Part shown: one piece after another, positions 29,721 through 39,123 of the stretch
How the letters are laid out: each line of letters opens with the position of its first letter
Position numbering within the stretch: the first letter of the stretch is position 1
Origin: Methanolobus sp. WCC5
Lineage (GTDB): Archaea > Halobacteriota > Methanosarcinia > Methanosarcinales > Methanosarcinaceae
Assembly (NCBI RefSeq): GCF_045690325.1
Contig: NZ_CP146981.1
Location: forward strand, 1,044,853-1,108,852
Direction: 5' to 3'
Length of the DNA: 64,000 bases
Notes under the pieces: model-generated
Seen by the model: the letters and a program-made list of their open reading frames with translations, nothing else
What the model was told of the DNA's origin: nothing
Databases searched by the model: none
Translations under genes and position numbers: made by a program

Positions 29721-31244
29721 TCACTCTAATTTCTGTCCGCAGTTGCCACAGAACTTCTCGTCTGGTCCTGTGTCACGGCCGCACTTAGGACATTTCCTCT
29801 TTCCTGCACCTATGCTGGAACGCTGTATAATACTGTCCTGTATCGTGGTATTGCTTATATTGTACTGGGTCAGGGAATCATCGACAAATAGTTTGATATC
29901 CGTCCTTTTTTCGATCTCTTCAAGGATCTTGTGGTAGAAACCTGTTAGTGCTTCTTCCTTTTCGGCCCAGGCTTTGACGATCAGGCGGGATTTGCGTTTA
30001 CCCACAACCTCAATATATGCTGCATACTTAAGGCCTGCCACACCCTCTGCATAGAACCTTGCAACACCGGTGAACAGTTGCTGTGTTGAGGTTATCTCCG
30101 GTGTTATCATGTACATGTTCATATCTTTCAGTATGCGGGTTGCAATATCAAAGAGATTCTCTGCCGGTATCTCCAGATCCTTGCTATCCTCTTCTGCTAC
30201 CATCATAGAACTTATGTCCAGTCTCCAGGTTGCCTCATCAGTCTCTGTTACCCTGAGGACGGGACAGACAATATCCACCATCTTATTGCTCAGATCCAGC
30301 TGAACATGCTTTTTCTGGCTATAATCATAGTAGCGTATATTTCCTGCTATAATGCAATTACCGCATTCACCGGTGGGCCGGATAAAGAACGTTACGGTTT
30401 TACTTTCAGCCGGTTGCAGCATGGGTATGATCTTCTTACTTTCCTTGATAAGGAAGACCTCAGGAACAAAAATGTTTATGCTTATATCACCCATTGGCTC
30501 TTTTGACGTGTTCTCAACCTTGATCTTATAAAGTATACTGGCGCCTTTGTACTGGACAGCAGACCTGATAACAACAGGATCGTTTATAGGAGATGGTTGC
30601 AAAATCGAAGCTTCAAAAACAGATTTGGAAGCATTTTCATCTGCAGCCGGGGTTTTTTCAATAACAGGCACAGATGATGTCATGGATTTTTCATCCATTC
30701 CTTTTGGAGTCTTTTTATTTTTTTTCTTCTTTGAGATCTTGCGCAACACAAAAAAAGCAATTAGAACTATTACAACAGTACCGACCATTCCATAGAACTC
30801 ATCTTCTGCCGAAGTACCAGAATAGTCATAGGAGTCGGTATAGTATCCTGTCTGCTTCTCCCTGACCTCCGGCTCATCAGAGGTCACGGGATAGTCCGGA
30901 TATATGTATATGTCCGAGATATCAACATAATCGTAGTAATCATCATAGTATATATCATCGATCCTGAACTGAAGCGTAAGAGATCTGTCCTGATAATAAA
31001 AATAATCCCCTCTTGCATAATACTGATCCATGAGGACAGTATCATAATAGGAAACAGTGAACCTTACAATTTCGTTGTAGGTATCTATGTCCAATACATT
31101 CAGGTGATATCCGTCTCTGACCTCTGCAATCTCACCTTCCATGAGAGTAACCTCATAATCACTGGCAGATGCGGGGCATAAGCTCAGCATGATACTACAT
31201 GCCAGCAAGATCAGGACGAGGGGTTTAAGAGATCTCCGGGTCAA
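29721..31244 (-). CDS. Type-I membrane protein with Tyr/Asp-rich ectodomain and cytoplasmic C-terminal zinc ribbon
   Basis: N-terminal signal peptide and a single TM helix (VVIVLIAFFVL followed by a Lys-rich stretch). The C-terminus is CPKCG...CGNCG, preceded by the motif TIQDSIIQRS, which is shared with the protein at 34698-36440. Confidence 0.6.
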   Translation of the reverse strand: MTRRSLKPLVLILLACSIMLSLCPASASDYEVTLMEGEIAEVRDGYHLNVLDIDTYNEIVRFTVSYYDTVLMDQYYARGDYFYYQDRSLTLQFRIDDIYYDDYYDYVDISDIYIYPDYPVTSDEPEVREKQTGYYTDSYDYSGTSAEDEFYGMVGTVVIVLIAFFVLRKISKKKKNKKTPKGMDEKSMTSSVPVIEKTPAADENASKSVFEASILQPSPINDPVVIRSAVQYKGASILYKIKVENTSKEPMGDISINIFVPEVFLIKESKKIIPMLQPAESKTVTFFIRPTGECGNCIIAGNIRYYDYSQKKHVQLDLSNKMVDIVCPVLRVTETDEATWRLDISSMMVAEEDSKDLEIPAENLFDIATRILKDMNMYMITPEITSTQQLFTGVARFYAEGVAGLKYAAYIEVVGKRKSRLIVKAWAEKEEALTGFYHKILEEIEKRTDIKLFVDDSLTQYNISNTTIQDSIIQRSSIGAGKRKCPKCGRDTGPDEKFCGNCGQKLE

Positions 31245-31354: not shown

Positions 31355-32647
31355 TCAAACATCTGTGAGTCTTTTGCCACACTGGCTGCAAAAACTTGCC
31401 TCCGAAGGGATTGTTGACCCACATCCCGGACATTTTCTAACTGTGTGTGAAGTCCTGCCCACGGCAGCTCCCATCATAGCGGCATCAAGTTCCTGTCTGC
31501 GGTAAGAATCTGCACGTTCCCTGTCTTCGACTTCCATCATAAACCTGACACGATCTTCTTTTGCAAGAGCTTCTCCCTGTTTGATCTTTGCCAGGGCTTC
31601 GAGCTGCTCCGGTGTCATGCGACCATATTCGCGACCCTCGCTCACAGTCTTTGCAACATCGGCCCCTCCTGATCCAGTTATGTGTTTAAGGTATTCCATG
31701 TCACGTCCGTGTTCACGATCCCGCATGTCCTGTTCGACCTCAAGCTCAGCACGCATACCTTTTGCCTTTGCGATTTTTAGTTCCTCTTTGAGGCTTATAG
31801 CTTCCCTAGCTTCCCTTATATCAGCTTCATATTGCAGTCTTTCAGCCTCAAGTTCAGAGCTGACATCCTTCAATCTCTGATCACGATGGAAATCTTTTTC
31901 AGTTGCCACAGTTGCATGGCCTGCACGCAGACCTGCCACTTCTTCCCGGCCCCTGCGCTCAAGATCACCTTCCACTGACAGGGTCTCAAGTTCTGCAAGC
32001 TCTTCCTTTGTCTGCAGATCATTTGTGGCCTGCATTACCTTACCATAAGAACCAAGGTCCCACTGGATTGTGTATTTCAGGATTTCCAGCCCCCACATGG
32101 AAAAAGTGGAACGCAGCCGCATCTCAAGCTCATTCTCAAGGTTCAGGCGAAGGTCCCGGTTCCCGTAAATACTTTCAACATCTTCCTGTCTTATCCCGGG
32201 TTCAAGTACAAGTGTCAGTACCTCGCTTTCAATGCGCCCGTATATATCCTGCACTGAAAGGTCCCTGATCCCTTTCCTGTCTGGTGTCGCATAGGCATAC
32301 AACATCTGGAAGAAACGTTTCGGATCCTGTATCCTGAATCTCAGCAGACCGCCACAGGCTATTCTCTGGTCATCACTGGTCCACAGTTCTTCCTGTGTCC
32401 ATTGCATGTCCTTAGGAGATGTATCCATCAGCGCAACATCCACATCCTTTCCGATATTGCCAGGCTTTAGCAGGCCGCCAATTTGTAATTTACCACTGTC
32501 CACTATCTCTTCAACAACACCATTCTTTACCATGGCTGCCTTTTCATTGGGCGAGAGTATCACAGCTTTGCTGAAAAAGCCCCCGACCTCCTTTTTAGGA
32601 ACCACCCTGGCAATATCATCTGCTTCTCTTTTCCATTTGAATGCCAT
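31355..32647 (-). CDS. SPFH/band-7 (flotillin-like) protein with coiled-coil region and C-terminal zinc ribbon
   Basis: N-terminal ~200 aa match the SPFH pattern (…LLRFRIQDP…WGLEILKYTIQ). A long charged coiled coil follows, then a C-terminal CPGCG...CSQCG. Confidence 0.6.
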   Translation of the reverse strand: MAFKWKREADDIARVVPKKEVGGFFSKAVILSPNEKAAMVKNGVVEEIVDSGKLQIGGLLKPGNIGKDVDVALMDTSPKDMQWTQEELWTSDDQRIACGGLLRFRIQDPKRFFQMLYAYATPDRKGIRDLSVQDIYGRIESEVLTLVLEPGIRQEDVESIYGNRDLRLNLENELEMRLRSTFSMWGLEILKYTIQWDLGSYGKVMQATNDLQTKEELAELETLSVEGDLERRGREEVAGLRAGHATVATEKDFHRDQRLKDVSSELEAERLQYEADIREAREAISLKEELKIAKAKGMRAELEVEQDMRDREHGRDMEYLKHITGSGGADVAKTVSEGREYGRMTPEQLEALAKIKQGEALAKEDRVRFMMEVEDRERADSYRRQELDAAMMGAAVGRTSHTVRKCPGCGSTIPSEASFCSQCGKRLTDV

Positions 32648-32702
32648 TATCCTGACACCTTTGTTTTGTCAATCTTAAATTCTATTTATGTATTGGATAA
32701 GT

Positions 32703-32715
32703 ATTATATATATTG
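32703..32715 (+). promoter_or_regulatory. Candidate archaeal TATA box (TATTATATATATT) in the divergent intergenic region upstream of the RHH/ESCRT-III-like/Vps4-like operon
   Basis: AT-rich TATA-like motif about 55 bp upstream of the ATG at 32764. Also sits in the 116-bp divergent spacer shared with the SPFH gene. Confidence 0.3.
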
Positions 32716-32763
32716 TTTTCCATTGTATACATAAGAATACAAAAGGAATCAAGTTGGAATAAC

Positions 32764-32919
32764 ATGGTAAATTCTTATCCTGTAAGTGCAAGGATCTCAG
32801 AAGATAGTAAAGTATATCTGGACAAATTAGTAGAAATGGGAATAGCGATCAACCGATCAGAAGCCATGAAACTTTGTATCAGGTACGCAAAACAGAAAAA
32901 GATGGAGGAGGAATTGTAA
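32764..32919 (+). CDS. Small ribbon-helix-helix (CopG-like) DNA-binding protein
   Basis: 51 aa from ATG 32764, with a beta-strand (VSARISEDS) followed by two helices. Its stop codon overlaps the start of the next gene (TAATG). Confidence 0.5.
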   Translation: MVNSYPVSARISEDSKVYLDKLVEMGIAINRSEAMKLCIRYAKQKKMEEEL

Positions 32920-33488
32920 TGGGACTGACAAATCCATTTAAGAAGATATCACCCGAAGAGCTTAAGACAAAACTGGCAATTTCCGAGCAAAGGCTGACGG
33001 CACGGGAAAAAGAACTGATGAAAAAACAGATCAAATCCAGGGAAGAAGCAAAAGAAGCGCTTGCAAAAGGAAATGACAGGGAGTTCAGGGTTGCTTCAAG
33101 AAGATTTTCTCTTGTGGAGGGGCAGGTGAACACCATCAGCAGCATGGTAGAGATGGCACAATCCATGACAGATGTAATTGAAATGCAGACCGGGCTCAAA
33201 GAAGTCGTTGAGATAGGCCAGGACCTGGGAAAGTGGCAGAAACAACTTGGTTTTGACACTTCAAAACTAGAAGGTGCTGTAACTAACATAAGGACCTCCA
33301 TGGAAAAGGTTAACACAGCAACAAGTATGATGACAGCTTCCATGGATGCGGCAATGGGCGGTGGCACTGAACTTAGTGAGATGCAGGATTCGCTGCGATC
33401 AGAACTCCTTGCAGAACTCTCCAGTGAACAGCCTGCAAAGGATGAGCTTTCAAAGAAGATAGAATCAGAAATGGCAAACAGTGAATAA
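32919..33488 (+). CDS. ESCRT-III/Snf7-like (PspA/Vipp1 superfamily) helical protein
   Basis: 189 aa, all-helical. Basic N-terminal helix, then M/S/T/A-rich helices (SSMVEMAQSMTDVIEMQTG...AVTNIRTSMEKVNTATSMMTASMDAAMGG) matching the Snf7 pattern. Acidic C-terminus with a possible MIM-like helix (DSLRSELLAEL). Strong GGAGGAGG SD 5 nt upstream. Confidence 0.55.
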   Translation: MGLTNPFKKISPEELKTKLAISEQRLTAREKELMKKQIKSREEAKEALAKGNDREFRVASRRFSLVEGQVNTISSMVEMAQSMTDVIEMQTGLKEVVEIGQDLGKWQKQLGFDTSKLEGAVTNIRTSMEKVNTATSMMTASMDAAMGGGTELSEMQDSLRSELLAELSSEQPAKDELSKKIESEMANSE

Positions 33489-33540
33489 AAGAAACCAGAT
33501 TTCCCAAGAATTTAATTATTCATTATACTGAGGTGCCCAT

Positions 33541-34701
33541 TTGAACCCAGCAATCACTTTTGCCGCCCAGGCCCGCGGATATGCAAAAGCTGCAAAGGAT
33601 CTGGAAGACAGAGGAGAGAATGAACGTGCCCGTGAACTATACCTGAAAGCTGCCAAGCTCTATAATGATGCTTCAATGATGACAGATGAAGGCATTGACC
33701 GGAATACCCAGCGTGACCTGGCAGAACATCTTTTTGCTAAGGCTCAGTCGCTTAAAAATCCGACTGCACTGTCTTCAGGAAAAAACGCACATGGTAAAAA
33801 AGAAGCATCAAACAATGATGAGTCTTCCATTTCAAAGGATGATGTATTTCTCAAAGAGATACCAAATATCGGCTTTTCAGATATTGGCGGCCTTGAACAG
33901 GTGAAGGAGGAAATACGCAAAGCCATTATCTATCCTTTTACACATAAAGAACTTTACCAGATGTACGGACAGAAAGCCGGAGAAGGGATCTTGCTCTATG
34001 GCCCTCCTGGCTGTGGTAAGACAATGATGGCAAAGGCAGCGGCAAAAGAATGCGAAGCGGATTTCATCAGCGTCAAGACCAGCAGCATTGTAAGTAAATG
34101 GGTCGGTGCTTCGGAGAAGAATGTCAAACAGGTCTTTGACATTGCCCGCGGGGGGGAGAGATCCATCATCTTTTTTGACGAAATAGATTCCATAGCTTCA
34201 AGACGCAGTGAAAGCGAGGACTATGCAAAAAGAGTGGTCAATGAACTTCTTGCCCAGATGGATGGTGTGGATACTGCGTCTGACAACCTTCTGGTGCTGG
34301 CAGCTACCAATGAACCATGGGCTATCGATCCGGCCCTGAGGCGTCCGGGGCGTTTCAGCAAACTTGTATTTGTCCCTGAACCAGACCAGGATGCAAGAAA
34401 AGCAATTCTGGGAATACATCTTCGAAAAAGGCCGGTAGACAGTGATGTGGACATAGATGCCCTTGCACGGCTAACAGAATCCTATTCCGGAGCAGACCTT
34501 GCAGCTATATGCAGGGAAGCAGCAGACATACCCCTGGGAGAAGCACTGAGGGGAGGGGAGCCAAGAAAAATACGGCTTCGTGATTTTGAAGCTGTTCTAA
34601 AGAAACGTAAACCTTCAATTGTTAGCTGGTACATAGAGGCCAGATCAGCAGTTCTGAAGACCGGAGAGGGAGAAGTGTTTGAGGAAATGCTGAAAAAGTG
34701 A
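33541..34701 (+). CDS. Vps4-like AAA+ ATPase with N-terminal MIT domain
   Basis: N-terminal three-helix MIT-like region (AQARGYAKAAKDLEDRGENERARELYLKAAKLY). Single AAA module with Walker A GPPGCGKT and Walker B IIFFDEID. The SRH region ATNEPWAIDPALRRPGRF belongs to the meiotic/Vps4 clade. TTG start with a GAGGTG SD. Confidence 0.8.
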   Translation: MNPAITFAAQARGYAKAAKDLEDRGENERARELYLKAAKLYNDASMMTDEGIDRNTQRDLAEHLFAKAQSLKNPTALSSGKNAHGKKEASNNDESSISKDDVFLKEIPNIGFSDIGGLEQVKEEIRKAIIYPFTHKELYQMYGQKAGEGILLYGPPGCGKTMMAKAAAKECEADFISVKTSSIVSKWVGASEKNVKQVFDIARGGERSIIFFDEIDSIASRRSESEDYAKRVVNELLAQMDGVDTASDNLLVLAATNEPWAIDPALRRPGRFSKLVFVPEPDQDARKAILGIHLRKRPVDSDVDIDALARLTESYSGADLAAICREAADIPLGEALRGGEPRKIRLRDFEAVLKKRKPSIVSWYIEARSAVLKTGEGEVFEEMLKK

Positions 34702-36440
34702 TACAAATGACATTCAAACTGTCACATTTAAATCCCCGGAATAATTTACGCATCGGCATTTATACCGGATTGGTTTTTGGTCTTGCAGAAGGATTCCCCG
34801 GTGCTATAAAAGGTGCAATTATCGGTTTGATACTTGCTTTTATTACTGCAATGATAGTTCAAAAAGTACTGAACAGAAGACTTGGGATGGAAAGACAGGA
34901 AGATAGCGTAATGTCCTATGCATTCTTCCTGGGAATGATCATCGCAATACCTGGAGCAGTGTTATTTGGTGCGTTCAAACCTGCACCAGTGATTTCACTG
35001 TTTGTGTGTACAATTGTAGCTCTTCGATCTGGCTCAAAAATAAAGAAAATCATGCAGGAAATCAATGCTGAAAAAGAAAATGAAATGCTAGAAAAACTTG
35101 AACTGGAAGAAGCGGCAAGTGATGCAGTTGAAATAACCGTAGAAGTGCAGCAACCACTTAGAACTGAAACTGAAAACCCGGTAAAAATAACCATCAAAAA
35201 TCCGTCTGACCTGCCCATAACTGACATTTCAATTATAGCTAAATGCACCCGTCTTATCCACTGTGACGAACCCGAAGTAAGCATAGATATAATACCACCT
35301 GGATCATCGAGTTATACTGCTATTTTCATCTACCCGAGAATTTCGGATGAAATTGATATCGGACAATTATTCATTGCATACAACATCAACGGAAACTATT
35401 ACGATAAAGACCCAATAGATATTGGAATTTATGAGGCAACAAACGGCCAGAATGTGAACAATGGTAGTATTGGGAATGTAGAAACCCATTTACAGATTAT
35501 CAGGGAAACTGAATTCTACCAGGGGTTTATTCGCCTGAAGATGGCAGTTAATAATAGATCACCTCTGGTTGTTAATGATGTAACACTTGAATTTGACTTT
35601 GATGAGCAGCTTTTCAGGATAGACAGGTTTGAACCTGCATATTCGGAAAAAAACAACCGCTTGATCCTCGGGAATATCCCCGGCAATAATTCAAAGTCAG
35701 TCATGGTTTATTTTGATCCCATGCTGTGCTCAAAGTCCTCAGAGATAAAATGTAGAATCTTTTATAAGGATGCACATGGTAAGCTCCTTAACACGGAAAT
35801 GAAGCCAAAAAGAATCGAAGTTACATGCCCCATCATGAAAACGGATTCCGATATTAATATAGGCATTCTCCGGGAACTTGTAGCATCACTTCCTTTCAGG
35901 GACAGTAAGGTTTACAGAATTAAGTCCGAGCTTGATATTGCAACCATTATGGCCATATGCCGCGAAATGGTACAACGCCATGATATCAGGCATGTGAGAA
36001 CATTGAAGACCATGGATGGAAAAAACTATGAGACCTGGTACTATGGAAAGACAAAAGTAAATGACCATGACCTGATACTCAAAATCACTGCTTCTGAAGA
36101 GACAGGATGTATAGAGATATTTGGTGCCACAAGGACCGCTGAATCACTTGTAGGCATGCTTGCTGAGTTTGGGCGTGAATTCTGCCGGGAGATGAAAACA
36201 AGCCCTGGTGGAAAAAATGATGTCACACCGATCGTCAACGTGACAATCAAAGACTCCATAATTCAGCGTAGCAATCTGTTGAATTCGTGTGACCTTCACG
36301 GAAATTGTACAGGAGATGTGGTCATTGAAGATAGTGTGGTGCAGAACACAGACATGGGAGCAAATTTTTGTACCTCGTGTGGTTCTAAAGTAAGTAAGGG
36401 GGCAAATTACTGCATAGAATGTGGCACCAGGATTATTTAA
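34698..36440 (+). CDS. Multi-TM membrane protein with Ig-like beta repeats and C-terminal zinc ribbon
   Basis: N-terminal TM helices, a coiled coil, and repeated beta-rich modules (…IDIGQLFIAYNINGNYYDKDPIDIG…). The C-terminus is TIKDSIIQRS…CTSCG…CIECG. The likely ATG start at 34707 lies 5 nt after the Vps4-like stop. Confidence 0.6.
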   Translation: MIQMTFKLSHLNPRNNLRIGIYTGLVFGLAEGFPGAIKGAIIGLILAFITAMIVQKVLNRRLGMERQEDSVMSYAFFLGMIIAIPGAVLFGAFKPAPVISLFVCTIVALRSGSKIKKIMQEINAEKENEMLEKLELEEAASDAVEITVEVQQPLRTETENPVKITIKNPSDLPITDISIIAKCTRLIHCDEPEVSIDIIPPGSSSYTAIFIYPRISDEIDIGQLFIAYNINGNYYDKDPIDIGIYEATNGQNVNNGSIGNVETHLQIIRETEFYQGFIRLKMAVNNRSPLVVNDVTLEFDFDEQLFRIDRFEPAYSEKNNRLILGNIPGNNSKSVMVYFDPMLCSKSSEIKCRIFYKDAHGKLLNTEMKPKRIEVTCPIMKTDSDINIGILRELVASLPFRDSKVYRIKSELDIATIMAICREMVQRHDIRHVRTLKTMDGKNYETWYYGKTKVNDHDLILKITASEETGCIEIFGATRTAESLVGMLAEFGREFCREMKTSPGGKNDVTPIVNVTIKDSIIQRSNLLNSCDLHGNCTGDVVIEDSVVQNTDMGANFCTSCGSKVSKGANYCIECGTRII

Positions 36441-36514
36441 GGCCATATTTTCACTAATATATTTATAATTTTAAATACATAAGATACTTGTTCATTCCTG
36501 TAAAGGTGGTTCAA

Positions 36515-37777
36515 ATGAAACTGGGACCTCTGGATGATATTATAAAATCACTTTCTTATGCCCTTCATAACGAGGCAGGTGCCAGGGTAGGATTGTTCTT
36601 TCAATTCTACGTCTTTTTTTGGATTGTGATGTCGTCATTCTTTGTTGTGACACGTATACTCTCAATTGACGAAAGACCAAATCCCATCTATGTTGCCAGT
36701 GCACCATTCTACATCCTGTTTCTTTATGTTCCGCTGTATGCTTTCTGGATATATGAAAAAAAGATCGGCATCGAAAAAAGAAGAGTCAAAGAGATGCAGT
36801 TAGTTTCTTCCGTAAATATAGAATACAGGTTTCCAGAGCCAGTGGATATCGGCATGGCTGCTATGCTGTATTTCAGGATCAATAACCCTACTGAAAAACC
36901 AATAGACAACATCTGGATACGGGCGGTTTTCCCGGCAACTGTTCGCTGTGACAGGCCTGTCCTGAGTCTTGGTTCCCTTGAACCAATGTCATCTTTATCT
37001 TCTTCTTTTTCTTTTATGCCACTCACATCAGGAAATTTGTCAATGGGCTATTGTGACCTTTACTTTGAGATCAACAGGCATAAACACCAGAGACCACCGT
37101 TATTTTTCGGGAACATTGATATTATCCATTCATATCTTGGATTGGATGTTCAAATGCCAAAGACACTCCGATTCGGGCACAGCTCTGTGATATCCATCAG
37201 AATATGGAACCACTCGAATCAGAATCTGGAAAAACTGCACACTAAATGTAATTTCCAAAAAGGAATACAATATGATACAGCTTTTTCCGATACAAGAACT
37301 GTACCCCAGGGTGCCTTATTTGAAGTGACACATCAGATAACCCCAACAACTGCAGGTACAATTGACCTGGGATATTTTGAAATCATATTTGACATTGAAG
37401 ATAACAAATGTAAAATAGGACCGGTGAATTTCGGTGAATATATGATCCGTGTTCCTGAAATCGATGTTAAGATCAATATCCCGGAAACATTATATAGCAC
37501 GGTTGGAAATACCATTGGAATATACGTTGAGAACAAATCTGAGGAAGTAATCCATAACATCTGTTTCAATAGCTGTTTTTCTTCATTTATAGAATGCCAT
37601 AGGCCAAACGTTTGTATCACTGACATCCTCCCATATTCATCCGGATATACTTCACTGATGATAAAACCCGTAAATGCAGGTCAGATCGACCTGGGCAACC
37701 TTAATATTTCCTTTGAAGTGAATGATATAACATTACAGAAAGAACCCATAGACATGGGCACACATGGGGTTGTGTAA
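36515..37777 (+). CDS. Membrane-anchored hypothetical protein with Ig-like beta repeats (paralogous to the domains of the upstream gene)
   Basis: N-terminal TM helices. Repeated motifs (GTIDLGYFEIIFDIEDNKCKIGPVNFG, GQIDLGNLNISFEVNDITLQKEPIDMG) resemble those in 34698-36440. AAGGTGG SD before the ATG at 36515. The track ORF starts with TTG at 36488. Confidence 0.55.
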   Translation: MKLGPLDDIIKSLSYALHNEAGARVGLFFQFYVFFWIVMSSFFVVTRILSIDERPNPIYVASAPFYILFLYVPLYAFWIYEKKIGIEKRRVKEMQLVSSVNIEYRFPEPVDIGMAAMLYFRINNPTEKPIDNIWIRAVFPATVRCDRPVLSLGSLEPMSSLSSSFSFMPLTSGNLSMGYCDLYFEINRHKHQRPPLFFGNIDIIHSYLGLDVQMPKTLRFGHSSVISIRIWNHSNQNLEKLHTKCNFQKGIQYDTAFSDTRTVPQGALFEVTHQITPTTAGTIDLGYFEIIFDIEDNKCKIGPVNFGEYMIRVPEIDVKINIPETLYSTVGNTIGIYVENKSEEVIHNICFNSCFSSFIECHRPNVCITDILPYSSGYTSLMIKPVNAGQIDLGNLNISFEVNDITLQKEPIDMGTHGVV

Positions 37778-37851: not shown

Positions 37852-39123
37852 ATGGAAACACTTAAAGATCCAAAAGAGCTGGAAGCGGTCAACAGGCAAA
37901 CCGTAATCGATAATCTTAATGAGGTTTATAATGCTGTTGAAAAGCTGATCCAAAGAGCCTATGCAAAGAAAGAAAGCGAACTTAATTCCCGGCTTCGCAA
38001 CATAAGGACTGATGTGTCACAGCTCCTATCAGACATCAGGAATAAAAGCATAGATGGTTTTTCCGGAAAGAAAGGAACACTTGATGATTTCTATAGAACG
38101 GGAGAAGAATTGTTGAAGGATTCATACAAAATGAGAGATACATTCTCTTCTTTAACAGGTTCAATGGAGAAGATAGATATCTTTTTACTGGAGGACCTAA
38201 TCGATAATTTTAAAAAGGAATATAATAACCGCATCATAGTAGACCAGAATATTCTCAAAGAGTTCAGGTTAAAACAAATGGAAGCAGCGAGTGCGCAACG
38301 CGTTATGGCAGGTGGCAACGATCTTGCGGTAAAAAAACAAACTCCGATACCTGACCCCAAACCCTGGAATGAAAGGGATAAAATCACAAGCTCTTTTGTA
38401 ATCTCAAAAGAAAGCCCCGGGTCTTCTACACCAGCTTTCTGGACAATGCCAAAGAACAGCAAAGAAGCAGATGTAAAGGAAGATATTGAGACAAATGTGC
38501 TTTCAAAGATCTACAATTACATGAACGTACTGGAGAACAAATATTCAACATACCAGCCGGAAGTATCATTTGCCGGTGAATATATAGGGAACCGAAAATG
38601 GAAAAAGAAAGTATCTGACAAATTCATTTCAGGCAGTGTTGTGGACAGCTTTTTGAAACCCATTCTGACCTTTGAAACCTGTTGGCGTCCATTTGATGAA
38701 CTGAGAACTGTCATGCAATTCGTTCAGAATGAAGCAAGCACAGTTCCGGAAGGAAAATACAAGAGCATATGCCTGCTGAATTTTAACTGGGATGAGGATA
38801 TCGTGGAATGGGCAGAAAACTATGTTCATCCGCGCCTGATATTATATCTTTATGACCTTAAATCAGACAGTATATGGTTCAATGAAAAAATTGAACTTGC
38901 CGGAAAGCTGAAGGTATGGCACAATACGGATACTTATGTAACTCTTCAAAGTGAGCTTGAGGCGCTGACAGAACAGGATGAAGGCTTTAATGCAGCTGAT
39001 GTGATGAAAGTTACAGGATTGAACATTGAAGGTGCCAACAATTATATTTCAGAAATGCTTAAAAGTAAAACTATTATAGATCTGGGATTTGGTACTTCCC
39101 GATATAAAGGAATGAAAAAGTAG
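37852..39123 (+). CDS. Hypothetical soluble protein (N-terminal coiled coil, C-terminal HTH-like segment)
   Basis: 423-aa ORF in the same orientation, 75 bp after the previous gene. No family recognised. Confidence 0.5.
   Translation: METLKDPKELEAVNRQTVIDNLNEVYNAVEKLIQRAYAKKESELNSRLRNIRTDVSQLLSDIRNKSIDGFSGKKGTLDDFYRTGEELLKDSYKMRDTFSSLTGSMEKIDIFLLEDLIDNFKKEYNNRIIVDQNILKEFRLKQMEAASAQRVMAGGNDLAVKKQTPIPDPKPWNERDKITSSFVISKESPGSSTPAFWTMPKNSKEADVKEDIETNVLSKIYNYMNVLENKYSTYQPEVSFAGEYIGNRKWKKKVSDKFISGSVVDSFLKPILTFETCWRPFDELRTVMQFVQNEASTVPEGKYKSICLLNFNWDEDIVEWAENYVHPRLILYLYDLKSDSIWFNEKIELAGKLKVWHNTDTYVTLQSELEALTEQDEGFNAADVMKVTGLNIEGANNYISEMLKSKTIIDLGFGTSRYKGMKK

What the first reader, a model, noticed from the sequence alone, without database searches (positions are those of the whole stretch)
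31355..32647. SPFH/flotillin-like protein fused to a C-terminal zinc ribbon, divergent from the ESCRT-III/Vps4 core
The N-terminus matches the SPFH/band-7 pattern, followed by about 180 aa of charged coiled coil and a terminal CPGCG…CSQCG. SPFH proteins scaffold membrane microdomains, and in bacteria they recruit PspA. The fusion with a zinc ribbon is unusual. Zinc ribbons recur in three proteins of this locus.
Basis: partly seen in the sequence, partly recalled or inferred. Interest (0 to 1): 0.55.

Follow-up and report, generated by a model that had tools for sequence, protein, structure and literature searches.

The report
SPFH–zinc-ribbon scaffold of an archaeal ESCRT locus
The gene really does encode a membrane-scaffold (SPFH) protein with a long coiled coil and a terminal zinc ribbon, and it always sits next to ESCRT-III/Vps4 genes in these methanogens. 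This protein family and its ESCRT link were already described in 2024, so the finding is correct but not new.

Summary
ORF 31355-32647(-) encodes a 430-aa protein, identical to WP_407356947.1 of Methanolobus sp. WCC5. It has an SPFH/Band_7 domain, about 195 aa of charged helix and an invariant C-terminal C4 zinc ribbon. It has no transmembrane segment.

In 34 of 34 genome loci and 13 of 13 metagenome contigs, its orthologues lie head-to-head with an RHH, ESCRT-III and (usually) Vps4 operon. In 29 of 30 genome loci with downstream DNA, a zinc-ribbon-tagged adaptin-like membrane protein follows.

The family is already published. It is arCOG15283, the SPFH + coiled-coil + zinc-ribbon component of the "Meth_adaptin" ESCRT system (Makarova et al. 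2024, mBio). Two of my hits are that paper's own listed proteins.

The claim that the fusion is unusual is wrong. Anchorless SPFH proteins with terminal zinc ribbons form a large superfamily that includes B. subtilis YdjI, which recruits PspA.

The most likely mechanism is a peripheral ring or cage scaffold. Membrane partners would dock it, and it would localise or nucleate ESCRT-III. This mechanism is inferred, not shown.

One side observation is not in that paper: a 51-aa RHH gene translationally coupled to ESCRT-III, and a nearly invariant 33-bp palindrome/BRE/TATA element in the divergent promoter.

The parts
31355..32647 (-). CDS of the SPFH + coiled-coil + zinc-ribbon protein, 430 aa. 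Identical to WP_407356947.1 of Methanolobus sp. WCC5. Orthologue of arCOG15283.
   Evidence: ORF; Pfam; 86 homologues; exact look-up
32057..32647 (-). Residues 1-197: conserved anchorless N-terminal segment (FKWK..IAR..PK..G) plus the SPFH/Band_7 alpha/beta domain.
   Evidence: Band_7 30.5 bits over residues 30-195. AF2 pLDDT 80-93 over residues 70-200. Foldseek hits to stomatin, HflK/C, flotillin, prohibitin and erlin, E 8e-9 to 1e-4. No transmembrane segment: maximum KD19 hydropathy 0.75.
31463..32047 (-). Residues 201-395: charged helical / coiled-coil region. One helix of about 100 residues (201-302) is followed by three helices. The motif EDRER (374-378) is conserved.
   Evidence: AF2 secondary structure; charge count; conservation profile
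31367..31441 (-). Residues 403-427: C-terminal C4 zinc ribbon (Cys406, 409, 420, 423).
   Evidence: Zn_Ribbon_1 26.4 bits; Cys invariant; 81 of 86 homologues
32699..32732 (.). Nearly invariant intergenic control element. On the SPFH-sense strand it reads (A/T)TGTATACAATGGAAAACAnTATATATAATAcTT: a TGTATACA palindrome, a BRE-like GGAAAACA and a TATA box. It lies between the divergent start codons.
   Evidence: Alignment of 22 loci. One match in the window against 0.04 expected. One copy, same place and orientation, in 32 of 35 family loci. All 13 metagenome contigs with the exact 25-mer carry it between the SPFH and RHH genes.
32764..32919 (+). 51-aa ribbon-helix-helix (CopG-like) protein. Its last codons (MEEE) form the Shine-Dalgarno sequence of the next gene, and its stop codon overlaps that gene's ATG (TAATG).
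   Evidence: RHH_1 E 0.0014; sequence; intact ORF in 47 of 47 loci
32919..33488 (+). ESCRT-III (Snf7/CdvB)-like protein, 189 aa. The true start is the ATG at 32919, not the TTG at 32874.
   Evidence: Weak Snf7 hits in 5 of 7 orthologues, best 9e-4. UniRef name 'Snf7 family protein'. AF2 predicts four long helices. Top Foldseek hits are Asgard ESCRT-IIIB, CdvB, Snf7 and CHMP2A/3. Orthologues are arCOG00454 in PMC10936438.
33541..34701 (+). Vps4/CdvC-like AAA+ ATPase with a weak N-terminal MIT-like domain.
   Evidence: AAA 148.8 bits. The NCBIfam CdvC model is matched end to end at 243 bits, below its equivalog cut-off. MIT E 0.036 over the whole MIT profile.
29721..31244 (-). 507-aa membrane protein: N-terminal hydrophobic segment, outer domain, transmembrane helix, adaptin-appendage-like region and C-terminal zinc ribbon. 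It lies 110 nt downstream of the SPFH gene with no T-run between them, so it is probably co-transcribed.
   Evidence: Zinc ribbon plus sub-threshold Coatamer_beta_C / GAE hints; transmembrane segments; sequence; downstream of SPFH in 29 of 30 loci
34698..36440 (+). 580-aa multi-transmembrane protein with an IG/adaptin-like region and a C-terminal zinc ribbon.
   Evidence: Zn_Ribbon_1 28.3 bits; transmembrane segments; Alpha_adaptinC2 hint
36488..37777 (+). 429-aa membrane protein with IG-like repeats.
   Evidence: Transmembrane segments; sub-threshold TRAPPC13_C, Transglut_C and Alpha_adaptinC2 hints
37852..39123 (+). 423-aa soluble coiled-coil protein with a probable C-terminal winged-helix domain.
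   Evidence: Weak hit to a wH-type domain. [quoted passage not shown] Conserved in most loci.

Best explanation
The gene encodes the SPFH component (arCOG15283) of the euryarchaeal 'Meth_adaptin' ESCRT system. The following are shown. It is a cytoplasmic SPFH protein with no membrane anchor, a coiled coil of flotillin-like length and an invariant C-terminal C4 zinc ribbon. Across Methanosarcinaceae, other Methanosarcinales and Methanoperedens it sits head-to-head with an RHH, ESCRT-III and (usually) Vps4 operon. The two arms share one nearly invariant promoter/operator element. An adaptin-like membrane protein with the same kind of zinc ribbon follows it. The following are inferred. Like other SPFH proteins it assembles through its coiled coil into a ring or dome on the inner face of the membrane. 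Because it has no anchor of its own, the zinc-ribbon-tagged membrane proteins of the locus dock it there, as YdjG/YdjH dock B. subtilis YdjI. The docked scaffold localises or nucleates the ESCRT-III polymer at a defined membrane patch, as YdjI does for PspA. Vps4 then recycles ESCRT-III. The output is membrane remodelling, either budding and sorting or repair. The RHH protein, bound to the TGTATACA palindrome, probably co-regulates both arms.
For: Domains and fold. No transmembrane segment. Orthology to the published exemplars: P0058 is WP_013898576.1 (56% identity) and P0054 is WP_048205008.1 (57%) (PMC10936438). Synteny: ESCRT-III and RHH adjacent in 34 of 34 genome loci, Vps4 in 28 of 31, adaptin-like zinc-ribbon protein downstream in 29 of 30; 13 of 13 metagenome contigs. 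Shared invariant control element. Homology to YdjI-type SPFH + zinc-ribbon proteins over residues 8-195: hhalign probability 98.3%, E 2e-14. YdjI is anchorless, carries a C-terminal zinc finger, needs YdjG/H for membrane binding and is required to localise PspA (PMC8581546; PMC11237479). The zinc ribbon is kept even in orthologues that lost about 100 aa of coiled coil (P0082, P0084). ESCRT-III identity of the neighbour.
Against: No interaction, oligomeric state or localisation was tested. AF2 confidence is moderate (pLDDT 73; below 55 over residues 290-340). The Band_7 score is modest and the protein is not a Pfam Band_7_1 (YdjI family) member. A related adaptin-like, ESCRT-III and Vps4 locus shows no SPFH gene among its Pfam-annotated neighbours, although two unannotated genes there could not be checked, so the protein looks accessory. 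More distant SPFH + zinc-ribbon relatives (24% identity) lie in loci with no recognisable ESCRT-III or Vps4. Three Methanoperedens-type loci (L027-L029) lack Vps4 nearby, and L027 carries a MIT-only protein instead. The role of the zinc ribbon is unknown.
Confidence: 0.6

Rival explanations
1. It is a generic SPFH microdomain or protease-regulating scaffold (HflK/C-, stomatin- or QmcA-like) that merely lies next to the ESCRT genes and has no functional coupling to them.
For: The best structural matches are stomatin, HflK/C, prohibitin, erlin and QmcA. Public annotations call homologues 'regulator of protease activity HflC'.
Against: It has no transmembrane anchor and is therefore cytoplasmic. 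No FtsH or NfeD partner is in the locus. Adjacency to ESCRT-III holds in 47 of 47 loci with upstream DNA across lineages with only about 50% protein identity, and the promoter element is shared and invariant.
Confidence: 0.08
2. The system is a Psp-like envelope-stress and membrane-repair module rather than a vesicle or cargo-sorting machine. The SPFH protein would sense or mark damaged membrane and chaperone ESCRT-III assembly there. Its scaffold role is the same, but the biological output differs.
For: The closest experimentally studied analogue is the stress-induced pspA-ydjGHI operon. Profile homology to YdjI-type proteins. The ESCRT-III superfamily includes PspA and Vipp1 repair proteins (PMC8281802, listed). 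A dedicated small repressor-type regulator fits an inducible response.
Against: The locus carries three adaptin/IG-like membrane proteins and a Vps4 with a MIT-like domain. These features point to cargo or adaptor logic, and PMC10936438 interprets them as protein sorting. No stress-sensor domain was recognised.
Confidence: 0.25
3. It is part of an anti-virus defence or abortive-infection module.
For: A close relative, P0087, fuses the same SPFH domain to a TIR domain. The Vps4-like ATPase gives generic hits to IetA/IteA AAA models.
Against: There are no PADLOC hits for the SPFH protein or the non-AAA neighbours. The locus sits in a conserved housekeeping neighbourhood (gyrB/gyrA, pdxS/pdxT, S6e, aIF5B) that is syntenic across genera. 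There are no relatives in viral contigs.
Confidence: 0.04

Closest known systems
arCOG15283, 'SPFH family protein, ESCRT system component', of the Meth_adaptin ESCRT system (Makarova et al. 2024, mBio, PMC10936438)
   Same: Same family. The published exemplars WP_013898576.1 (M. zhilinae) and WP_048205008.1 (Methanococcoides methylutens) are my hits P0058 and P0054, at 56-57% identity and 99% coverage. The architecture is the same (SPFH + coiled coil + zinc ribbon). The neighbours are the same (ESCRT-III, Vps4, coiled-coil/wH protein, adaptin-appendage proteins with zinc ribbons). The paper already proposes the YdjI/PspA analogy and the cage idea.
   Different: Nothing of substance. This is the Methanolobus orthologue. 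The window has no ProX gene, which the paper lists for the Meth_adaptin loci. The paper does not mention the RHH gene or the conserved promoter element.
Bacillus subtilis YdjI of the pspA-ydjGHI operon (Pfam Band_7_1 type; Scholz et al. 2021, PMC8581546; Ravi et al. 2024, PMC11237479)
   Same: An anchorless SPFH protein with a C-terminal zinc ribbon. It is encoded with an ESCRT-III-superfamily protein and with membrane proteins, one of which (YdjG) also carries zinc ribbons. The SPFH domain including the N-terminal segment is homologous (hhalign 98.3%).
   Different: The window protein is not a Band_7_1 member by Pfam. It has about 195 aa of coiled coil where YdjI has a short low-complexity linker. 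Its partner is Snf7/CdvB-like with a Vps4 ATPase, not PspA. The genes are divergent rather than in one operon. The partners are adaptin-like rather than YdjG/YdjH.
Cage-forming SPFH proteins: flotillin-1/2, HflK/C, stomatin, prohibitin, erlin, QmcA
   Same: An SPFH fold followed by a long wall-forming helix. The overall length (430 aa) is close to the flotillin chains. Foldseek E is 8e-9 to 1e-6, with alignments to flotillin 9bq2 spanning about 400-430 columns.
   Different: It has no transmembrane helix, hairpin or recognisable lipidation site. It has a terminal zinc ribbon. It gives no hit to a flotillin-specific Pfam model. Cage formation was not tested.

Membership tests
SPFH / Band 7 superfamily | Sequence match to the SPFH (Pfam Band_7) profile above the curated threshold | tested here: met
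   30.5 bits against a cut-off of 23.6, residues 30-195. 19 of 20 family members match, best 3e-11.
SPFH / Band 7 superfamily | Alpha/beta SPFH fold followed by a long helix | tested here: met
   AF2 model. All top Foldseek PDB hits are SPFH proteins, E down to 8e-9.
SPFH / Band 7 superfamily | N-terminal membrane anchor (transmembrane helix or hairpin), typical of stomatin, prohibitin, HflK/C and flotillin | tested here: not met
   Maximum 19-residue Kyte-Doolittle hydropathy is 0.75, with no window above 1.6. The same holds for 118 of 126 relatives. YdjI shares this exception (PMC8581546).
SPFH / Band 7 superfamily | Homo-oligomeric ring or cage on the membrane | not testable with these tools
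   Only monomer prediction was available.
arCOG15283 / Meth_adaptin ESCRT component (PMC10936438) | Orthology to the listed members | tested here: met
   WP_013898576.1 and WP_048205008.1 are hits P0058 and P0054, at E 1e-156 to 1e-159 and 99% coverage.
arCOG15283 / Meth_adaptin ESCRT component (PMC10936438) | SPFH + coiled-coil + zinc-ribbon architecture | tested here: met
arCOG15283 / Meth_adaptin ESCRT component (PMC10936438) | Neighbourhood with ESCRT-III, Vps4 and adaptin-appendage-like proteins | tested here: met
   Window; 34 of 34 genome loci and 13 of 13 metagenome contigs. The adaptin-like assignments in the window are sub-threshold by Pfam and rest on the paper's HHpred results for orthologues.
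YdjI / Pfam Band_7_1 (PF13421) family | Match to the Band_7_1 profile | tested here: not met
   No hit at E<=1 for the window protein. Only 2 of 20 orthologues match, weakly, at E 0.025. More distant relatives P0107 and P0176 do match.
YdjI / Pfam Band_7_1 (PF13421) family | Anchorless SPFH with a C-terminal zinc ribbon, and detectable homology | tested here: met
   hhalign against ten Band_7_1 + zinc-ribbon proteins gives probability 98.3%, E 2e-14.
YdjI / Pfam Band_7_1 (PF13421) family | Operon with PspA, YdjG and YdjH | tested here: not met
   The partner is Snf7/CdvB-like with Vps4, and no PspA_IM30 hit is in the locus.
YdjI / Pfam Band_7_1 (PF13421) family | Required to bring the ESCRT-III-superfamily partner to the membrane | not testable with these tools
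   This needs localisation or interaction experiments.
Flotillin | Flotillin-specific C-terminal domain and a hairpin or acylation anchor | tested here: not met
   Pfam returned only Band_7 and zinc-ribbon families. There is no hydrophobic hairpin. The structural similarity to 9bq2 is at the general SPFH + coiled-coil level.
ESCRT-III (for the neighbour at 32919-33488 on which the context rests) | Snf7-type helical hairpin core, and pairing with a Vps4 ATPase that has a MIT domain | tested here: inconclusive
   Snf7 is sub-threshold (13.8 bits; best orthologue 9e-4). Foldseek E values are weak (0.05-1), but the top hits are all ESCRT-III proteins. Vps4/CdvC-like is clear, but MIT is only E 0.036. 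Orthologues are assigned to arCOG00454 in PMC10936438.

The most novel reading that the evidence does not exclude
Two things together would make this a eukaryote-like coat, adaptor and ESCRT sorting pathway with its own switch in a methanogen. First, the overlooked 51-aa RHH protein and the invariant 33-bp palindrome/BRE/TATA element would form a dedicated bidirectional switch. It would control the SPFH/adaptin arm and the ESCRT-III/Vps4 arm together. Second, the C-terminal zinc ribbons shared by the SPFH scaffold and the adaptin-like membrane proteins would act as a common docking tag. That tag would assemble a flotillin-like cage with adaptor-like receptors at an ESCRT-III budding site.
Probability: 0.15. 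Interest if true: 0.7.

Novelty: already known. Interest (0 to 1): 0.3.

Why it matters
The SPFH/ESCRT-III pairing links two ancient membrane-organising systems. It recurs in bacteria (YdjI with PspA), in archaea (this locus) and in eukaryotes (flotillin with ESCRT-0/I). That recurrence bears on how early membrane-sorting machinery arose. The pairing has already been pointed out for this exact family, so the value here is confirmation plus practical detail for anyone who wants to test it. The details are: the protein has no anchor; the zinc ribbon is the most constrained C-terminal feature; the ESCRT-III start codon is 45 nt downstream of the mechanical ORF call; and a small RHH gene with a sharply defined operator/promoter offers handles for EMSA, reporter and induction experiments. 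No experimental work on this system was found in the searched library.

Tried and rejected
- Sequence searches of the SPFH protein against the PDB gave nothing as a single sequence. As a profile they gave only eL40 zinc-ribbon noise. Fold search was needed instead.
- A profile of distant relatives (A2) searched through the word-indexed database returned only 23 proteins, because zinc-ribbon words dominated the candidate selection. I therefore could not establish the taxonomy or context of the wider superfamily systematically.
- Three context look-ups of distant or bacterial relatives showed no ESCRT-III, Vps4 or PspA nearby. The ESCRT link therefore holds for the orthologous family only.
- The afdb50 fold library was unavailable.
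- The viral-contig scan found no relatives.
- The PADLOC search found no defence-family match apart from generic AAA hits. I rejected the defence reading.
- Sequence searches of the ESCRT-III neighbour against the PDB gave only noise.
- I looked by eye for a MIM-like Vps4-binding motif in the conserved C-terminal helices (EQLEALAKIK) and dropped it, because it does not fit the MIM1 spacing.
- I rejected the HflK/C-type protease-regulator annotation carried by some database entries, because there is no anchor and no FtsH or NfeD partner.
Full report
**Observation.** The window is from Methanolobus. The 430-aa product of ORF 31355-32647(-) is identical to WP_407356947.1, 'SPFH domain-containing protein [Methanolobus sp. 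WCC5]'. Pfam places a Band_7/SPFH domain at residues 30-195 (30.5 bits, cut-off 23.6). It places a Zn_Ribbon_1 domain at residues 405-427 (26.4 bits, cut-off 25).

AlphaFold2, run with a 20-sequence alignment, gave mean pLDDT 73, rising to 80-93 in the SPFH core. It predicts an alpha/beta domain over residues 11-197, a helix of about 100 residues (201-302), further helices to residue 395, and a small beta ribbon holding the four Cys. Foldseek against the PDB returns only SPFH proteins at the top: stomatin, HflK/C, flotillin, prohibitin, erlin, QmcA and major vault protein, at E 8e-9 to 1e-4. Residues 200-400 are 40% charged.

**The family.** A database search found 86 homologues. Every named one comes from Methanosarcinales or 'Ca. 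Methanoperedenaceae'. The four Cys are invariant in the alignment. 81 of 86 sequences end in CxxC-(8-14)-CxxC. The five exceptions are three truncated sequences, one CxC variant and one protein with a different C-terminus. Two orthologues that lost about 100 residues of coiled coil still keep the ribbon (P0082 and P0084). The ribbon is therefore under strong constraint.

The protein has no hydrophobic segment at all: its maximum 19-residue hydropathy is 0.75. It must be cytoplasmic and can bind the membrane only peripherally or through partners. The N-terminal segment (FKWK..IAR..PK..G, with W5 invariant) is conserved and belongs to the folded domain.

**Genomic context.** The gene is divergent from an operon at 32764-34701(+). 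The operon has three parts.
- A 51-aa ribbon-helix-helix protein (32764-32919).
- An ESCRT-III-like protein. Its real start is the ATG at 32919, which overlaps the RHH stop codon (TAATG).
- A Vps4/CdvC-like AAA+ ATPase. The NCBIfam CdvC model is matched end to end at 243 bits, below its equivalog cut-off. MIT is weak, at E 0.036.

The ESCRT-III assignment is weak by sequence: Snf7 is sub-threshold, found in 5 of 7 orthologues with a best E of 9e-4. Other evidence agrees with it. UniRef names orthologues 'Snf7 family protein'. AF2 predicts a four-helix architecture. The top fold matches are Asgard ESCRT-IIIB, Sulfolobus CdvB, Snf7 and CHMP2A/3.

Downstream of the operon lie three more genes: a 580-aa membrane protein with a C-terminal zinc ribbon, a 429-aa membrane protein with IG-like repeats, and a 423-aa coiled-coil protein with a winged-helix-like end. 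Downstream of the SPFH gene, 110 nt away with no T-run between them, is a 507-aa membrane protein with an adaptin-like region and a third zinc ribbon. T-runs follow that gene.

**Test of the proposed refutation.** I fetched 35 genome loci encoding relatives of the SPFH protein and mapped the window's proteins onto them.
- In all 34 loci that contain DNA upstream of the SPFH gene, RHH and ESCRT-III lie immediately upstream in divergent orientation.
- Vps4 is present in 28 of the 31 loci with enough upstream DNA. Three Methanoperedens-type loci (L027, L028, L029) lack it within 7-9 kb.
- An adaptin-like zinc-ribbon protein follows the SPFH gene in 29 of 30 loci with downstream DNA.

Thirteen further metagenome contigs, found through a non-coding motif, show the same arrangement. 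The orthologous fusions are not scattered, and the locus sits among housekeeping genes (gyrB/gyrA, pdxS/pdxT, S6e, aIF5B) in several genera.

**What is already known.** Makarova et al. 2024 (mBio, PMC10936438) define a 'Meth_adaptin' clade of euryarchaeal ESCRT systems. [quoted passage not shown] They connect it to B. subtilis YdjI/PspA and to the 24-mer cage of a bacterial SPFH protein. Their tables list the family as arCOG15283, with WP_013898576.1 (M. zhilinae) and WP_048205008.1 (Methanococcoides methylutens) as members. Those accessions are my hits P0058 and P0054, at 56-57% identity and 99% coverage. The term 'Meth_adaptin' occurs in no other paper of the library, so I found no experimental follow-up. 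The finding is therefore a correct rediscovery.

**Is the fusion unusual?** No. A full HMMER scan of 1.84 billion representative proteins with the family profile gave 1212 proteins at E<=1e-3 and 219 at E<=1e-10. Among the 126 SPFH-type proteins of at least 250 aa in the top 150, 89 carry a zinc ribbon at the C-terminus, the N-terminus or both, and 118 have no transmembrane segment. One caveat applies: the profile includes the ribbon, which favours such proteins in the ranking.

Some of these relatives also match Pfam Band_7_1. From my own knowledge, not tested here, Band_7_1 is the YdjI-type family. A profile-profile comparison with ten Band_7_1 + zinc-ribbon proteins gives 98.3% probability (E 2e-14) over residues 8-195. 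The window protein is not itself a Band_7_1 member. YdjI is described as lacking a membrane anchor, carrying a C-terminal zinc finger, depending on the membrane proteins YdjG/YdjH, and being required for PspA localisation (PMC8581546). Ravi et al. describe YdjG as carrying two zinc ribbons (PMC11237479).

**Limits of the ESCRT link.** It holds for the orthologous family, not for the whole superfamily.
- Two relatives at about 24% identity lie in loci with no recognisable ESCRT-III or Vps4. Their neighbours include membrane proteins that share a conserved C-terminal motif, which I judged SHOCT-like from memory.
- A Paenibacillus YdjI-like gene has no PspA within 6 kb.
- Conversely, an ESCRT-III relative at about 52% identity lies in an adaptin-like, ESCRT-III and Vps4 locus with no SPFH among its Pfam-annotated neighbours. 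Two unannotated neighbours there could not be checked.

The SPFH protein therefore looks like a lineage-specific accessory of this ESCRT type.

**Mechanism.** The following are shown: the domain architecture, the absence of an anchor, the strict linkage, and the shared promoter region. The rest is inferred by analogy with solved SPFH cages and with YdjI. The coiled coil would drive ring or dome assembly on the cytoplasmic face of the membrane. Membrane partners of the locus, most likely the co-transcribed 507-aa protein, would dock it. The scaffold would then localise or nucleate ESCRT-III, and Vps4 would recycle the polymer.

The zinc ribbon is the only module shared by the SPFH protein and the adaptin-like membrane proteins. 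In a Methanoperedens locus it occurs in five proteins. That suggests a common docking function, but nothing tested here shows what it binds. Whether the output is budding and sorting, as Makarova et al. propose, or Psp-like repair is open. I give the repair reading about one chance in four. I consider the defence reading and the HflK/C-like protease-regulator reading unlikely.

**Side finding.** The 118-nt region between the two divergent start codons contains a 33-bp element at window 32699-32732. On the SPFH-sense strand it reads (A/T)TGTATACAATGGAAAACAnTATATATAATAcTT. It stays almost invariant across 22 aligned loci whose flanks cannot be aligned and whose proteins are only 50-60% identical. 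It occurs once in the window, against 0.04 expected. It occurs once, in the same place and orientation, in 32 of 35 family loci. All 13 metagenome contigs that carry the exact 25-mer have it between the SPFH and RHH genes.

The element combines an 8-10-nt palindrome, a purine-rich BRE-like stretch and a TATA box. In the window, the TATA box is about 55-60 nt from each start codon. I read it as a shared core promoter with an operator for the RHH protein; this is inference.

The RHH ORF is intact in 47 of 47 loci. Its invariant C-terminal codons (MEEE) form the Shine-Dalgarno sequence of ESCRT-III, and its stop codon overlaps or abuts the ESCRT-III start. The published analysis does not mention an RHH gene. 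In the excerpts of its neighbourhood tables that I read, no gene is listed in the 266-335-nt gap where the RHH gene would lie. RHH regulators of ESCRT-based division genes are known in Sulfolobales (aCcr1, PMC9976878), which makes the analogy reasonable.

**Verdict.** Novelty is nil for the main claim, because it was published in 2024. The regulatory detail is a small addition. Interest is modest.

Noticed in passing
window 32699-32732 (intergenic, between the SPFH ATG at 32647 and the RHH ATG at 32764): A nearly invariant 33-bp element: a TGTATACA palindrome, a BRE-like GGAAAACA and a TATA box. It is conserved across Methanosarcinales and Methanoperedens while its flanks are unalignable. The exact 25-mer occurs in 13 metagenome contigs, always at this locus. 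It is probably a shared bidirectional promoter plus an operator.
   Followed up: yes
window 32764-32919 (+): A 51-aa ribbon-helix-helix gene, intact in 47 of 47 related loci. Its last codons (MEEE) form the Shine-Dalgarno sequence of ESCRT-III, and its stop codon overlaps or abuts the ESCRT-III start (TAATG, TGATG, TAAGTG, TAAATG). The published description of this ESCRT system does not mention it, and the table excerpts I read do not list it.
   Followed up: yes
window 32874-32921: The mechanical ORF call starts the ESCRT-III gene at TTG 32874. Conservation and the coupled ATG at 32919 show that the real protein is 189 aa, not 204 aa.
   Followed up: yes
L027 9066-20228 (Ca. Methanoperedens, JBAZOV010000021.1): A variant locus with no Vps4 or other AAA gene within 21 kb. 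It carries the SPFH + zinc-ribbon gene, three further C-terminal zinc-ribbon proteins, a 774-aa protein with a MIT domain but no ATPase, and a second SPFH protein with an N-terminal zinc ribbon.
   Followed up: partly
P0087 (792 aa, representative library; no locus): The second-best hit to the family profile (E 2.6e-126). It fuses a closely related SPFH domain to a C-terminal TIR domain with weak ThsB-like similarity. Its origin and context are unknown.
   Followed up: no
L036 3524-15743 and L037 3919-12700: SPFH + zinc-ribbon relatives at 24% identity lie in loci without recognisable ESCRT-III or Vps4. A conserved 150-170-aa helical protein lies next to the SPFH gene. Several proteins there, some of them membrane proteins, share a C-terminal motif (...DDLE.EKK.I.E.LW.LR..LFKEDYEKPF) that I judged SHOCT-like from memory. 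L036 also has a faint DO-GTPase-like hit.
   Followed up: partly
L039 949-2993 and the 117-kb contig: A related system with ESCRT-III at about 52% identity. A short soluble adaptin-appendage-like protein (238 aa, homologous to residues 226-474 of the 507-aa protein) precedes ESCRT-III and Vps4. No SPFH gene was recognised nearby.
   Followed up: partly
L006, L007, L008 (Methanolobus vulcani and M. bombayensis): The homologue of the 429-aa IG-repeat membrane protein has moved from the Vps4 side to the far side of the 507-aa gene, on the opposite strand. L006 and L007 also lack the 580-aa gene. The accessory genes are therefore shuffled between close species while the SPFH/RHH/ESCRT-III core stays fixed.
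   Followed up: no
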